Shown here: in pieces, positions 7,690-18,100 of the stretch
Numbering within the stretch: the stretch's first letter is position 1
Layout of the letters: each line of letters begins with the position of its first letter
Origin: the human T2T-CHM13v2.0 reference genome, Homo sapiens
Assembly (NCBI RefSeq): GCF_009914755.1
Contig: NC_060934.1
Strand: one strand, 5' to 3'
Length of the DNA stretch: 64,000 nt
Notes under the pieces: generated by a model
Told to the model about the DNA's origin: nothing
Databases searched by the model: none
Seen by the model: the letters and a program-made list of their open reading frames with translations, nothing else
Program-made: the position numbers and the translations under genes

Positions 7690-10600
7690 TCCAATTAAAA
7701 GACACAGACTGGCAAATTGGATAAAGAGTCAAGACCCATCAGTGTGCTGTATTCAGGAAACCCATCTCATGTGCAGAGACGCACATAGGCTCAAAATAAA
7801 GGGATGGAGGAAGATCTACCAAGCAAATGGAAAACAAAAAAATGCAGGGGTTGCAATCCTAGTCTCTAATAAAACAGACTTTAAACCAACAAAGATCAAA
7901 AGAGACAAAGAAGGCCATTACATAATGATGAAGGGATCAATTCAACAAGAAGAGTTAACTATCCTTAATATATATACACCCAATACAGGAGCAACCAGAT
8001 TCATAAAGCAAGTCCTTAGAGACCTACAAAGAGATTTAGACTCCCACACAGTAATAATGGGAGAATTTAACACCCCACAGTCAACATTAGACAGATCAAC
8101 GAGATGGAAAGTTAACAAGGATATCCAGGAATTGAACTCAGCTCTGCACCAAGCGGACCTAATAGACATCTACAGAACTCTCCACCCCAAATGAAGAGAA
8201 TATACATTCTTTTCATCACCACACCACATCTACTCCAAAATTGACCACATAGTTGGAAGTAAAGCACACCTTAGCAAAAGTAAAAGAACAGAAATTATAA
8301 CAAACTCTCAGACCACAGTGCAATCAAACTAGAATTCAGGATTAAGAAACTCACTCAAAACCGCTCAACTACATGGAAACTGAACAACCTGCTCCTGAAT
8401 GACTACTGGGTACATAAGGAAATGAAGGCAGAAATAAAGATGTTCTTTGAAATCAACGAGAACAAAGACCAACATACCAGAATCTCTGGGACACATTCAA
8501 AGCAGTGTGTAGAGGGAAATTTACAGCACTAAATGCCCACAAGAGAAAGCAGGAAAGATCTAAAATTGACACCATAACATCACAATTAAGGGAACTAGAA
8601 AAGCAAGAGCAAACACATTCAAAAGCTAGCAGATGGCAACAAATAACTAAGATCAGCGCAGAACTGAAGGAGATAGAGACACAAAAAACCCTTCAAAAAA
8701 TCAATGAATGCAGGAGCTGGTTTTTTGAAAAGATCAACAAAATGATAGACCGCTAGCAAGACTAATAAAGAAGAAAAGAGAAGAATCAAATAGATGCAAT
8801 AAAAAAGGATAAAGAGGATATCACCACTGATCCCACAGGAATACAAAGTACCATCAGAGAATACTATAAACACCTCTATGCAAATAAACTAGAAAATCTA
8901 GAAGAAATGGATAAATTCCTCAACACATACATCCTCACAAGACTAAACCAGGAAGAAGTTGAATCTCTGAATAGACCAATAACAGGATCTGAAATTGAGG
9001 CAATTATCAATAGCTTACCAACCAAAAAAAGTCCAGGACCAGATGGATTCACAGCCAAATTCTACCAGAGGTACAAGGAAGAGCTGGTACCATTCCTTCT
9101 GAAACTATTCCAATCAATAGAAAAAGAGGGAATCCTCTCTAACTCATTTTATGAGGCCAGCATCATTCTGATACCAAAGCCTGGCAGAGACACAACAAAA
9201 AAAGAGAATTTTAGACCAATATCCCTGATGAACATCGATGCAAAAAATCCTCAATAAAATACTGGCAAACCGAATCCAGCAGCATATCAAAAAGCTTATC
9301 CACCATGATCAAGTGGGCTTCATCTCTAGGATGCAAGGCTGGTTCAACATACACAAATCAGTAAATGTAATCCAGCATATAAACAGAACCAAAGACAAAA
9401 ACCACATGATTATCTCATTAGAGGCAGAAAAGGCCTTTGACAAAATTCAACAAACCTTCATGCTAAAAACTCTCAATAAATTAGGTATTTATGGGACATA
9501 TCTCAAAATAATAAGAGCTATCTATGACAAACCCACAGCCAATATCATACTGAATGGGCAAAAACTGGAAGCATTCCCTTTGAAAATGGGCACAAGACAG
9601 GGATGCCCTCTCTCACCACTGCTATTCAACGTAGTGTTAGAAGTTCTGTCCAGGGCAATCAGGCAGGAGAAGGAAATAAAGGGTATTCAATTAGGTAAAG
9701 GGGAAGTCAAATTGTCCCTGTTTGCAGATGACATGATTGCATATCTAGAAAACCCCATCGTCTCAGCCCAAAATCTCCTCAAGCTGATAAGCAACTTCAG
9801 CACTCTCAGGATACAAAATCAATGTACAAAAATCACAAGCATTCTTATACACAAAAAACAGACAGAGAGCCAAATCATGAGTGAACTCCCATTCACAATT
9901 GCTTCAAAGAGAATAAAATACCTAGGAATCCAACTTACAAGGGATGTGAAGGACCTCTTCAAGGAGAACTACAAACCACTGCTCAATGAAATAAAAGAGG
10001 ATACAAACAAATGGAAGAACATTCCATACTCATGGGTAGGAAGAATCAATATCGTGAAAATGGCCATACTGCCTAAGGTAATTTATAGATTCAATGCCAT
10101 CCCCATCAAGCTACCAATGACTTTCTTCACAGAATTGGAAAAACTACTTTAAAGTTCATATGGAAGCAAAAAAGAGCCCACATCGCCAAGTCAATCGTAA
10201 GCCAAAAGAACAAAGCTGGAGGCATCACGCTACCTGACTTCAAACTATACTACAAGGCTACAGTAACCCAAACAGCATGATACTGGTACCAAAACAGAGA
10301 TATAGACCAATGGAACAGAACAGAGCCCTCAGAAATAACGCCACATATCTACAACTATCTGATATTTGACAAACCTGACAAAAACAAGCAATGGGGAAAC
10401 GATTCCCTATTTCATAAATGGTGCTGGGAAAACTGGCTAGCCATATGTAGAAAGCTGAAACTGGATCCCTTCCTTACACCTTATACAAAAATTAATTCAA
10501 GATGGATTAAAGACTTAAATGTTAGACCTAAAACCATAAAAACCCTAGAAGAAAACCTGGGCAATACCATTCAGGACATAGGCATGGGCAAGGACTTCAT

Positions 10601-15152: not shown

Positions 15153-18100
15153 TCAATTCCCACCTATGAGTGAGCACGAGGTGTTTGGTTTTTTGTCCTT
15201 GAGATAGTTTGCTGAGAATGATGGTTCCCAGCTTCATCCATGCCCCTAAAAAGGACATGAACTCATCCTTTTTTATGGCTGCACAGTATTCCATGGTGTA
15301 TATGTGCCACATTTTCTTAATCCAGTCTATCATTGTTGGACATTTGGGTTGGTTCCAAATCTTTGCTACTGTGAATAGTGCTGCAATAAACATATGTGTG
15401 CATGCGTCTTTATAGCAGCATGATTTATAATCCTTTGGGTATATACCCAGTAATGGGATGGCTGGGTCAAACGGTATTTCTAGTTCTAGATCCCTGAGGA
15501 ATCGCCACACTGACTTCCACAATGGTTGAACTAGTTTACAGTCCCACCAACAGCATAAAAGTGTTCCTATTTCTCCACATCCTCTCCAGCACCTGTTGTT
15601 TCCTGACTTTTTAATGATTGCCATTCTAACTGGTGTGAGATGGTATCTCATTGTGGTTTTGATTTGCATTTCTCTGATGGCCAGTGATGATGAACATGTT
15701 TTCATGTGTTTTTTGGCTGCATAAATGTCTTCTTTTGAGAAGTGTCTGTTCATATCCTTCACCCATTTTTTGATGGGGTGGTTTGTTTTTTTCTTTTCTT
15801 TTCTTTTTTGTTGTTTTTTTGAGATGGAGTCTAGCTCTGTTGCACAGGCTGGAGTGCAGTGGCGTGATCTCTGCTCACTGCAAACTCCGCCTCCCAGGTT
15901 CATGCCATTCTCCTGCCTCAGCCTCCCGAGTAGCTGGGACTACAGTCACCCGCCACCACATCCAGCTAATTTTTTTGTATTTTTAGTAGAGACAGGGTTT
16001 CACCATGTTAGCCAGGATGGTCTCGATCTCCTGACCTTCTGATCTGCCTGCCTCAGCCTCCCAAAGTGCTGGGATTACAGGCATGAGCCATCGTGCCCAA
16101 CCTGTTTTTTCTTGTAAATTTGTTTGAGTACTTTGTAGATTCTGGATATTAGCCCTTTGTCAGAGAGTAGATTTTAAAAATGTTCTCCCATTCTGTAAGT
16201 TTCCTGTTCACTCTGATGGTAGTTTCTTTTGCTGTGCAGAAGCTCTTTAGTTTAATTAGATCCCATTTGTCAATTTTGGCTTTTGTTGCCATTGTTTTAG
16301 ACATGAAGTCCTTGCCCATGCCTGTGTCCTAAATGGTATTGCCTAGGTTTTCTTCTAGGGTTTTTATGGTTTTAGGTCTAACATTTAAGTCTTTAATCCA
16401 TCTTAAATTAATTTTTGTATAAGGTGTAAGGAAGGGATCCAGTTTCCGCTTTCTACATATGGCTAGCCAGTTTTCCCAGCACCATTTATGAAATAGGGAA
16501 TCGTTTCCCCATTGCTTGTTTTTGTCAGGTTTGTCAAATATCAGATAGTTGTAGATATGCAGCATTATTTCTGAGGGCTCTGTTCTGTTCCATTGGTCTA
16601 TATCTCTGTTTTGGTACCAGTATCATGCTGTTTGGGTTACTGTAGCCTTGTAATATAGTTTGAAGTCAGGTAGCGTGATGCCTCCAGCTTTGTTCTTTTG
16701 GCTTACGATTGACTTGGTGATGTGGGCTCTTTTTTGCTTCCATATGAACTTTAAAGTAGTTTTTCCAATTCTGTGAAGAAAGTCATTGGTAGCTTGATGG
16801 GGATGGTATTGAATCTATAAATTACCTTAGGCAGTATGGCCATTTTCACGATATTGATTCTTCCTACCCATGAGTATGGAATGTTCTTCCATTTGTTTGT
16901 ATCCTCTTTTATTTCATTGAGCAGTGGTTTGTAGTTCTCCTTGAAGAGGTCCTTCACATCCCTTGTAAGTTGGATTCCTAGGTATTTTATTCTCTTTGAA
17001 GCAATTGTGAATGGGAGTTCACTCATGATTTGGCTCTCTGTCTGTTTTTTGTGTATAAGAATGCTTGTGATTTTTGTACATTGATTTTGTATCCTGAGAG
17101 TGCTGAAGTTGCTTATCAGCTTGAGGAGATTTTGGGCTGAGACGATGGGGTTTTCTAGATATGCAATCATGTCATCTGCAAACAGGGACAATTTGACTTC
17201 CCCTTTACCTAATTGAATACCCTTTATTTCCTTCTCCTGCCTGATTGCCCTGGACAGAACTTCTAACACTATGTTGAATAGCAGTGGTGAGAGAGGGCAT
17301 CCCTGTCTTGTGCCCATTTTCAAAGGGAATGCTTCCAGTTTTTGCCCATTCAGTATGATATTGGCTGTGGGTTTGTCATAGATAGCTCTTATTATTTTGA
17401 GATACATCCCATCAATACCTAATTTACTGAGAGTTTTTAGCATGAAGGGCTGTTGAATTTTGTCAAGGGCTTTTTCTGCCTCTATTGAGATAATCATGTG
17501 GTTTTTGTCTTTGGTTCTGTTTATATGCTGGATTACATTTATTGATTTGTGTATGTTGAACCAGCCTTGCATACCAGAGATGAAGCCCACTTGATCATGG
17601 TGGATAAGCTTTTTGATATGCTGCTGGATTCGGTTTGCCAGTATTTTATTGAGGATTTTTGCATCGATGTTCATCAGGGGTATTGGTCTAAAATTCTCTT
17701 TTTTTGTTGTGTCTCTGCCAGGCTTTGGTATCAGGATGATGCTGGCCTCATAAAATGAGTTAGGGAGGATTCTCTCTTTTTCTGTTTATTGGAATAGTTT
17801 CAGAAGGAATGGTACCAGCTCTTCCTTGTACCTCTGGTAGAATTCTGCTGCAAATCCGTCTGGTCCTCGACTTTTTTTGGTTGGTAGGGTATTAATTGTT
17901 GCCTAAATTTCAGATCCTGTTATTGGTCTATTCAGAGATTCAACTTCTTCCTGGTTTAGTCTTGGGAGGGTGTATATGTCCAGGAATTTATCTATTTCTT
18001 GTAGATTTTCTAGTTTATTTGCATAGGGGTGTTTACAGTATTCTCTGATGGTAGTTTGTATTGCTGTGGGATTGGCGGTGATATCCCCTTTATCATTTTT

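What the first reader, a model, noticed from the sequence alone, without database searches (positions are those of the whole stretch)
9280..17620. Two inverted L1s share identical inactivating lesions over ~1.2 kb: ectopic gene conversion
Seen: L1-A 9280-10500 and the reverse complement of L1-B 16400-17620 carry the same non-consensus changes. These include a -2 frameshift (CAGCACTCTCAGG), a -4 frameshift (ACACAAAAAACAGACAGAGAG), a -1 frameshift (GGAAAAACTAC, giving TELEKLL*), a TGG>TGA stop (GCATGATA) and more than 15 substitutions (aaaatgggcac, cactgcta, ctgtccagg, aggtaaagggg, attgcat, ccatactc, gaagcaaaa, atcgtaag, acccaaac, gatattt, aaacgatt, tttcataa). By eye there are ~8 differences in ~920 nt of the core. 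The 5' halves are clearly more divergent and structurally different, and the two elements have separate TSDs. Inference: lesions that kill ORF2 are unlikely to come from a shared active source, so sequence was copied between the two elements after insertion, probably by intrachromatid fold-back. Identity falls off at the tract edges, which suggests more than one round.
Basis: partly seen in the sequence, partly recalled or inferred. Interest (0 to 1): 0.85.

Follow-up and report, generated by a model that had tools for sequence, protein, structure and literature searches.

The report
Gene conversion between two inverted L1s
Two old, independently inserted LINE-1 copies lying tail to tail on human chromosome 10 later copied about 1.2 kb of sequence from one to the other, a clear but ordinary example of gene conversion between nearby repeats.

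Summary

**The two elements.** L1-A (6046-11683, +) and L1-B (14914-21164, -) are separate insertions. Each has its own target-site duplication. B also carries a roughly 560-nt 3' transduction from chr16.

**The identity pattern.**
- ORF2 flanks differ by about 7%, no closer than either copy is to unrelated L1s.
- A 9499-10693 / B 16214-17404 differ at 12 of 1170 aligned sites.
- This tract holds a 464-nt perfect run; the longest in 10,000 shuffles was 241.
- 20 variants absent or nearly absent from 28 other L1 copies lie in the tract, against 3 in both flanks.
- A and B are sisters (support 1.0) only in the tract tree.

**Orientation.** TSD and host-L1 collinearity show no net inversion, so this was non-crossover ectopic gene conversion.

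- The -1, -2 and -4 indels are not pair-specific: 95, 205 and 483 places genome-wide.
- The -2 and -4 together restore the reading frame.
- "More than one round" is only suggestive. A separate 133-nt identical patch lies beyond B's Alu insertion.
- Donor and acceptor are unresolved.

The kind of event is known and this is a new instance of it. Interest is low to moderate.

The parts
6046..11683 (+). L1-A. Near full-length L1PA-type element with an A/T-rich tail and a 529-nt internal deletion at 7683/7684 (ORF1 3' end to ORF2 start).
   Evidence: 5' end and tail were read. Pfam finds Exo_endo_phos (7592-8191, E 8e-10) and RVT_1 (9232-10149, E 6e-30). The deletion is shown.
6035..6045 (+). Left copy of A's target-site duplication (ATACAGGTTGG).
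   Evidence: It matches 11684-11694 at 10 of 11 bases.
11684..11694 (+). Right copy of A's target-site duplication (ATACAAGTTGG).
14914..21164 (-). L1-B. Near full-length L1PA-type element with a 217-nt deletion in the 5' UTR (near 21064) and an Alu insertion at about 15795-16113.
   Evidence: Alignment to A. Ends read. The 5' UTR deletion is inferred.
14043..14913 (-). 3' transduction carried by B: about 560 nt from chr16:68.605 Mb, including a (CA)n repeat. A later Alu at about 14561-14878 interrupts it.
   Evidence: Window 14045-14555 is 93.2% identical to the chr16 locus (32 mismatches in 513). Collinearity ends exactly at B's poly(A).
14029..14042 (+). Left copy of B's 14-nt target-site duplication (ACCATCTGATCTTT), at the end of old L1 fragment C.
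   Evidence: An exact repeat lies at 21165-21178.
21165..21178 (+). Right copy of B's 14-nt target-site duplication, at the start of old L1 fragment D.
9499..10693 (+). Main conversion tract, A side.
   Evidence: 12 mismatches in 1170 aligned columns. BIC-best segmentation places it at 9506-10684. 20 shared-private variants lie here.
16214..17404 (-). Main conversion tract, B side.
   Evidence: Same alignment.
9632..10095 (+). 464-nt perfectly identical core, A side. The B side is 16808-17271.
   Evidence: None of 10,000 shuffles reached it.
9168..9498 (+). Left shoulder, A side (B side 17405-17734). Divergence is intermediate, so this may be an older or patchy conversion.
   Evidence: 13/331 mismatches against 101/1396 in the left flank (p = 0.027). 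3 shared-private variants in 402 columns of 9101-9505.
10837..10969 (+). Second, separate 133-nt identical patch, A side (B side 15621-15753). It lies beyond the Alu heterology.
   Evidence: about 0.011 such runs are expected in the flanks. It holds the 2 right-flank shared-private variants, at 10892 and 10896.
15795..16113 (.). Alu insertion inside B. It is absent from A at the equivalent position 10794, and it lies between the two identical stretches.
   Evidence: 318-nt gap in A. Alu-like repeats (D11, I8). Ends read.
13453..14042 (+). Old L1 fragment C, the upstream half of the L1 that B inserted into.
   Evidence: 88% identical to A 9784-10367. It ends in B's TSD.
21165..22367 (+). Old L1 fragment D, the downstream half of the same old L1.
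   Evidence: 85% identical to A 10351-11557. It is collinear with C and in the same orientation.

Best explanation
Two L1PA-type elements of the same intermediate subfamily inserted independently, tail to tail. Later a break in one copy was repaired using the other, inverted copy as template. This was non-allelic (ectopic) gene conversion without crossover. It overwrote about 1.2 kb of ORF2 (A 9499-10693 / B 16214-17404) and probably one or more smaller patches.

**Shown:**
- the two insertions are independent;
- there is a sharply bounded tract of near-identity;
- pair-private variants are confined to that tract;
- tree topology differs between tract and flanks;
- the flanks keep their ancestral orientation.

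**Inferred:**
- the repair mechanism (synthesis-dependent strand annealing or a similar non-crossover pathway);
- pairing within one chromatid;
- the timing.

Donor and acceptor are not resolved.
For: **Independent insertions.**
- A has the TSD ATACA(G/A)GTTGG at 6035-6045 and 11684-11694.
- B has an exact 14-nt TSD at 14029-14042 and 21165-21178, which splits an older L1.
- Only B carries a 3' transduction, 93.2% identical to chr16:68.605 Mb.

**Flanks are unrelated beyond family level.**
- A and B are 92.7% (left) and 93.7% (right) identical. A against other copies that align well there is 91.5-94.7%.
- Shared-private variants number 1 in 551 columns (left) and 2 in 702 columns (right).

**The tract.**
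- 12/1170 mismatches, against 169/2391 in the flanks (p = 8e-18).
- BIC selects three segments, with the tract at 9506-10684.
- The 464-nt identical run was reached by 0 of 10,000 shuffles.
- There are 20 shared-private variants in 1184 columns. Of the 23 in the tract and left shoulder together, 12 are transversions.

**The comparison set makes the test conservative.** The 28 other copies were enriched for A's rare words. For example, 25 of 28 carry the 5-A run, which only 95 of 8,072 genomic places have.

**Whole-genome checks.**
- B is the only copy at 98% identity to A's tract. The next best are 95-96%, among 40 scored of 13,398 candidates.
- The 25-mer at 9690-9714 occurs only in A and B.
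- None of the 30 other copies examined carries more than 3 of the 23 private variants.

**Trees.** A and B are sisters with support 1.0 in the tract only.

**No net crossover.** Both TSD pairs are in the correct configuration. Old L1 halves C (inside the spacer) and D (outside it) are collinear and in the same orientation.
Against: - Three of four two-variant 'private' k-mers each have one further hit elsewhere: chr6:122.0 Mb, chr10:76.39 Mb and chrX:142.95 Mb. Single variants or pairs of variants are therefore not unique. The two fetched copies are only about 90% and 86% identical to A, and share 3 and 2 of the 23 variants. The chr6 copy was not fetched.
- The three indels are found at 95, 205 and 483 dispersed places.
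- Only 40 of 13,398 candidates were scored, so a third carrier of the whole haplotype is not formally excluded.
- No reads, no second human assembly and no primate orthologue were available.
Confidence: 0.88

Rival explanations
1. Shared descent. A and B each inherited the tract haplotype from one rare, partly defective source lineage, or from a mosaic source. Under this reading the identity dates from before insertion.
For: The -1, -2 and -4 indels occur in many dispersed copies. A and B belong to the same intermediate subfamily at most diagnostic sites.
Against: - Siblings would share source-specific variants along their whole length. The flanks hold only 3 shared-private variants in 1253 columns, against 20 in 1184 in the tract.
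- No other copy carries more than 3 of the 23 variants.
- The indels are unlinked. Of 20 sampled -2 copies, 1 has the -4, and 0 of the 19 alignable have the -1.
- B comes from a chr16 source locus that A shows no sign of.
Confidence: 0.04
2. A third L1 donated the tract to both A and B.
For: Nothing direct. One search scored only 40 of 13,398 candidates.
Against: - The candidate ranking favours copies that share A's rare words, yet the best third copy is 95-96% identical.
- Old L1 fragment C lies in the spacer and overlaps the core, but it is only 88% identical.
Confidence: 0.03
3. Assembly or polishing artefact. Reads were cross-mapped between the inverted arms and homogenised the consensus.
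For: Not tested. No reads or second assembly were available.
Against: - The tract still holds 12 substitutions and two indels (9 and 5 nt) between the arms.
- Its edges are graded.
- The arms are about 7 kb apart in a telomere-to-telomere assembly. That long reads would span both arms is my own knowledge, not a call.
Confidence: 0.03
4. Inverted segmental duplication of one L1, after which the flanks diverged.
For: The inverted match extends over about 5.6 kb.
Against: - The match stops at the L1 ends.
- The two copies have different TSDs, different internal deletions and different 3' flanks.
- The flanks hold almost no shared-private variants.
Confidence: 0.01

Closest known systems
Non-allelic gene conversion between neighbouring Alu elements. 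Described in the review PMC6598467, which cites Aleshin and Zhi 2010. I read passages only.
   Same: Dispersed retroelement copies of independent origin exchange sequence after insertion. The review states that rates are elevated for copies within less than 10 kb. Here the converted arms are about 5.6 kb apart.
   Different: Here the partners are 6-kb L1s in inverted orientation, and the tract is about 1.2 kb, longer than a whole Alu.
Polymorphic human inversions mediated by inverted L1 pairs, for example HsInv0341 with L1PA3 repeats (PMC3961182). I read passages and the table row only.
   Same: Inverted L1 copies a few kb to tens of kb apart act as recombination partners.
   Different: In this assembly there is no net inversion. 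The TSDs and the split old L1 are collinear. The outcome is a non-crossover tract.
[quoted passage not shown] I saw only the title, in the reference list of PMC7407515. The paper itself is not held.
   Same: This is the mechanism I infer here: a break in one L1 is repaired from another L1.
   Different: That work was experimental and in somatic cells. Here there is a fixed germline event, inferred from sequence alone.
Arm-to-arm gene conversion in large palindromes, such as those of the sex chromosomes. Recalled from general knowledge; no call.
   Same: Inverted arms with a short spacer are homogenised by intrachromosomal conversion.
   Different: Palindrome arms arise by duplication and are homogenised along their whole length. 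Here the arms are independent insertions, and only about 20% of the arm is homogenised.

Membership tests
Non-allelic (ectopic, interlocus) gene conversion tract | The two paralogous copies have independent origins, so identity is not left over from a recent duplication. | tested here: met
   The TSDs are separate, and only B has a chr16 3' transduction.
Non-allelic (ectopic, interlocus) gene conversion tract | A bounded stretch of significantly raised identity sits within background divergence. | tested here: met
   12/1170 mismatches against 169/2391 (p = 8e-18). BIC selects three segments. The 464-nt run was reached by 0 of 10,000 shuffles.
Non-allelic (ectopic, interlocus) gene conversion tract | Derived variants private to the pair are confined to the tract. 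| tested here: met
   20 in 1184 columns against 3 in 1253 (p = 1.9e-4). The 9690-9714 25-mer occurs only in A and B genome-wide. Three other k-mers each had one extra, unrelated hit.
Non-allelic (ectopic, interlocus) gene conversion tract | Tract and flanks give incongruent phylogenies. | tested here: met
   FastTree makes A and B sisters (support 1.0) in the tract. In both flanks they are not sisters.
Non-allelic (ectopic, interlocus) gene conversion tract | Orthologues in outgroup species show the pre-conversion state and the direction of transfer. | not testable with these tools
   No primate genomes are held. Subfamily-diagnostic sites did not resolve the donor.
Non-allelic (ectopic, interlocus) gene conversion tract | Non-crossover outcome: the flanking markers keep their original linkage and orientation. 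| tested here: met
   Both TSD pairs are correctly paired. Old L1 halves C and D have the same orientation. An even number of inversions cannot be excluded.
LINE-1 (L1PA-type) retrotransposon insertions | Endonuclease and reverse-transcriptase coding remnants, an A-rich 3' tail and target-site duplications. | tested here: met
   Pfam finds Exo_endo_phos and RVT_1 in A. Thousands of dispersed genomic relatives are seen. The exact subfamily name was not determined, because no repeat library is available.

The most novel reading that the evidence does not exclude
The pair may still be exchanging sequence. The 464-nt perfect core (1 mismatch in 590, against 11 in 580 in the rest of the tract), the graded left shoulder and the separate 133-nt patch beyond B's Alu would then record several conversion events. 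The latest would fall within the last one or two million years. In that case the tract could be polymorphic among humans, and it could go together with recurrent flipping of the 3.2-kb spacer. That would make the locus a small natural model of heterology-limited, repeated inverted-repeat recombination.
Probability: 0.2. Interest if true: 0.45.

Novelty: new member of a known kind. Interest (0 to 1): 0.3.

Why it matters
- **A well-documented single case.** It shows that old, dead L1 copies a few kb apart can overwrite each other.
- **Effect on dating.** Conversion of this kind distorts divergence-based ages and subfamily calls for the affected segment.
- **Effect on stability.** It leaves a 1.2-kb stretch of about 99% identity in inverted orientation, which is a possible substrate for inversion.
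- **An internal clock.** The chr16 3' transduction gives a calibration. Tract divergence is about 16% of the divergence between the transduced sequence and its source.
- **A method point.** 'Shared inactivating lesions' are weak evidence on their own. Each of the three indels recurs in 1-8% of dispersed L1 copies.

Tried and rejected
1. **Locating frame breaks against solved L1 ORF2p structures.** I used stop-to-stop ORFs and Pfam on open stretches instead.
2. **Donor and acceptor from subfamily-diagnostic sites**.
   - A and B agree at 26 of the 30 sites that separate two groups of reference copies.
   - They differ at 9008, 10736, 10971 and 11358, all outside the tract.
   - Direction stays open. 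An apparent 'younger-type' bias of the core disappeared once I saw that both copies also carry such alleles outside the tract, at 8987 and 10880.
3. **A linked -2/-4 lineage with a restored frame as a common source.** Rejected: only 1 of 20 sampled -2 copies has the -4.
4. **Third copies found by k-mers**. The two I fetched are older, unrelated L1s. The chr6 hit was not fetched.
5. **A four-segment model, meaning two rounds inside the tract.** BIC does not prefer it: 1549.4 against 1542.9.
6. **B's progenitor at the chr16 source locus.** The 9.9 kb I fetched holds no L1, only Alu matches, so it gives no pre-conversion reference.
8. **Literature.**
   - Five searches found reviews and related cases.
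   - In their listings I saw no paper whose title concerns this locus. Only three papers were opened, for passages. That is not proof that the locus is unpublished.
   - One paper is not held.
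Full report
**What is there**

The region holds two near full-length L1 elements lying tail to tail.
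- L1-A is on the + strand (6046-11683).
- L1-B is on the - strand (14914-21164).

The repeat finder shows an inverted match along almost their whole length. Arms are 85-95% complementary, except for one arm of 1395 nt (9243-10637 / 16266-17660) at 97%. Pfam finds an endonuclease remnant (7592-8191) and a reverse-transcriptase remnant (9232-10149) in A.

**Checking the observation**

| A coordinates | Mismatches | Divergence |
|---|---|---|
| 7700-9100 (left flank) | 101/1396 | 7.2% |
| 10651-11650 (right flank) | 68/995 | 6.8% |
| 9101-10650 | 30/1540 | 1.95% |
| 9621-10160 | 2/540 | 0.37% |

- The longest perfect run is 464 nt (A 9632-10095). The largest run in 10,000 shuffles of the difference vector was 241.
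- A likelihood segmentation with BIC selects three segments, with the tract at A 9506-10684: 12/1170 mismatches (1.0%), between flanks at 6.6% and 7.1%.
- The 5' parts are 79-89% identical and differ in structure. A lacks 529 nt at 7683/7684. B lacks 217 nt of 5' UTR. Both stretches are ordinary L1 sequence present in another copy.

**Are the two elements independent insertions?**

Yes.
- A is flanked by ATACAGGTTGG (6035-6045) and ATACAAGTTGG (11684-11694).
- B sits inside an older + strand L1, whose two halves are C (13453-14042) and D (21165-22367).
  - The halves overlap by an exact 14-nt target-site duplication, ACCATCTGATCTTT, at 14029-14042 and 21165-21178.
- Between that duplication and B's poly(A) lie about 870 nt that are not L1.
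  - A whole-genome search found one other copy of this sequence, on chr16 at 68.605 Mb, 93% identical.
  - Collinearity with chr16 covers window 14045-14555 (32 mismatches in 513).
  - After an Alu that inserted later, it runs on to 14913 and stops exactly where B's poly(A) begins.
  - B therefore carries a 3' transduction from a chr16 source locus.
  - The 9.9 kb of chr16 that I fetched holds no L1, so the progenitor is not there in this genome.
- C lies inside the spacer and D lies outside it, yet they are collinear and in the same orientation. A's duplication is also correctly paired. The spacer is therefore in its ancestral orientation, or has flipped an even number of times.

**Is the tract special to this pair?**

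The window's own genome could be searched. With A 9243-10637 as query, B scores 98% and the next best copies 95-96%. The tool scored 40 of 13,398 candidates. I aligned A and B with the 28 other loci it returned.

*Bias in the comparison set.* These 28 are strongly enriched for copies that share A's rare words. For example, 25 of 28 have the 5-A run, which occurs at only 95 places genome-wide against 7,977 for the 6-A form. This makes the test for 'private' variants conservative inside the tract.

*Shared-private variants.* I used only well-aligned loci, and counted a variant as shared-private when A equals B and at most 1 other copy carries it.

| Segment | Shared-private variants | Columns examined |
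|---|---|---|
| Left flank | 1 | 551 |
| Left shoulder | 3 | 402 |
| Tract | 20 | 1184 |
| Right flank | 2 | 702 |

- Tract against both flanks gives Fisher p = 1.9e-4.
- Of the 23 tract and shoulder variants, 12 are transversions, so they are not parallel CpG decay.

*Identity to other copies.* In the flanks A and B are 92.7% and 93.7% identical. That is no closer than A is to other copies that align well there (91.5-94.7%). In the tract A and B are 98.3% identical, against 91-96% for the others.

*Trees.* FastTree makes A and B sisters with support 1.0 and distance 0.012 in the tract. In both flanks they are not sisters, and their nearest neighbours are other loci.

Three of the four headline lesions are not pair-specific. 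Exhaustive pattern counts in the genome are:

| Lesion | Places with it | Intact form | Share |
|---|---|---|---|
| -1 (5-A run) | 95 | 7,977 | 1.2% |
| -2 junction | 205 | 9,309 | 2.2% |
| -4 junction | 483 | 5,651 | 7.9% |

- In the 28-locus alignment the -2 is in 3 copies, and a 4-nt gap at the -4 site is in 9, of which 6 give the same product.
- The -2 and -4 together remove 6 nt and restore the frame. The ORF at 9232-10152 stays open for 306 codons, with 19 codons read out of frame.
- The indels are not linked in a lineage. Of 20 sampled -2 copies, 1 has the -4. None of the 19 that align there has the -1.
- The product of the three frequencies is 2e-5. Sharing all three is therefore still strong evidence of copying, but no single lesion is.
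- The TGA stop is carried by 1 of the 28 others.

Two-variant k-mers from the tract gave mixed results.
- One hit only A and B.
- Three each hit A, B and one further place: chr6:122.0 Mb, chr10:76.39 Mb and chrX:142.95 Mb.
- The two extra copies I fetched are about 90% and 86% identical to A, and carry 3 and 2 of the 23 private variants.
- None of the 28 others carries more than 2.
- I read these extra hits as homoplasy among roughly 10,000 copies. The chr6 copy was not examined.

**One event or several?**

- BIC does not favour splitting the tract: four segments score 1549.4, three score 1542.9.
- A post-hoc split gives 1/590 against 11/580 mismatches (p = 0.003).
- The left shoulder, A 9168-9498, is intermediate: 13/331 against 101/1396 (p = 0.027).
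- A separate 133-nt perfect run lies at A 10837-10969 / B 15621-15753.
  - About 0.011 such runs are expected in the flanks.
  - It holds both right-flank shared-private variants.
  - About 150 nt at 11% divergence (18/160), and B's 318-nt Alu insertion (A-equivalent position 10794), separate it from the main tract.
- Patchy or repeated exchange, limited by the Alu heterology, is therefore plausible but not proven.

**Timing (inference)**

- The transduced sequence and its chr16 source differ by 32/513, which measures B's residence time.
- The tract differs by 12/1170, about 16% of that.
- At roughly 1e-9 substitutions per site per year (my own assumption, from no call), B would be about 30 million years old and the main conversion about 5 million.
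- The core may be younger.

**Direction**

A and B agree at 26 of the 30 sites that separate two groups of reference copies. The four sites where they differ lie outside the tract. Donor and acceptor remain open.

**Comparison with what is known**

- A review states that non-allelic gene conversion between Alu copies is well documented and is elevated for copies within less than 10 kb (PMC6598467, passages).
- Inverted L1PA3 and L1PA7 pairs are listed as the repeats at candidate polymorphic inversions; the L1PA3 case was validated as an inversion (PMC3961182, table row and passages).
- An experimental paper on LINE-to-LINE conversion after a break is known to me only by its title in a reference list. 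The paper itself is not held.
- Five searches listed no paper whose title concerns this locus. I opened only three papers, for passages. That does not show the locus is unpublished, and supplements were not consulted.

**Verdict**

This is a real, well-bounded, non-crossover ectopic gene conversion between two independently inserted inverted L1s. It is a new instance of a known kind of event. Not tested here: read-level support for the assembly, primate orthologues and human polymorphism.

Noticed in passing
window 14043-14913; locus L055 1919-2475 (chr16:68.605 Mb): L1-B carries a roughly 560-nt 3' transduction, including a (CA)n repeat, from a chr16 locus (93.2% identical). The chr16 site has no L1 within the 9.9 kb fetched, so the progenitor is absent from this genome. 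No sibling copy with the same transduction was found: the search returned only 2 candidates.
   Followed up: yes
window 13453-14042 and 21165-22367: An older + strand L1 was split by B's insertion. Its two halves overlap by the exact 14-nt TSD and keep the same orientation. This shows that the spacer between A and B has not undergone a net inversion.
   Followed up: yes
genome-wide; window 9798-9810, 9849-9869, 10137-10147: Three specific ORF2 frameshift variants recur at many dispersed L1 copies of differing age: -2 at 205 places, -4 at 483 and -1 at 95. They appear unlinked. Of 20 sampled -2 copies, 1 has the -4 and 0 of 19 alignable have the -1. Frequencies of 2% and 8% look high for independent recurrence of a 2-nt and a 4-nt deletion, and remain unexplained.
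   Followed up: partly
window 14561-14878 and 15795-16113: Two Alu insertions came after B's insertion. One lies in the transduced segment, with an 18-nt TSD that has 3 mismatches. The other lies inside B's ORF2, between the main tract and the 133-nt patch, where it may have limited the spread of conversion.
   Followed up: partly
G000 chr6:122009324, chr10:76391001, chrX:142950808: Single unrelated L1 copies elsewhere carry the same pair of rare substitutions as three of the four private k-mers tested. I read this as homoplasy. The chr6 copy was not fetched.
   Followed up: partly
one search compared: The own-genome DNA search ranks candidates by rare words. Its top hits are therefore strongly enriched for copies that share the query's rare variants: 25 of 28 carry a variant found in 1.2% of copies. 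Allele frequencies taken from such hit lists are biased.
   Followed up: yes
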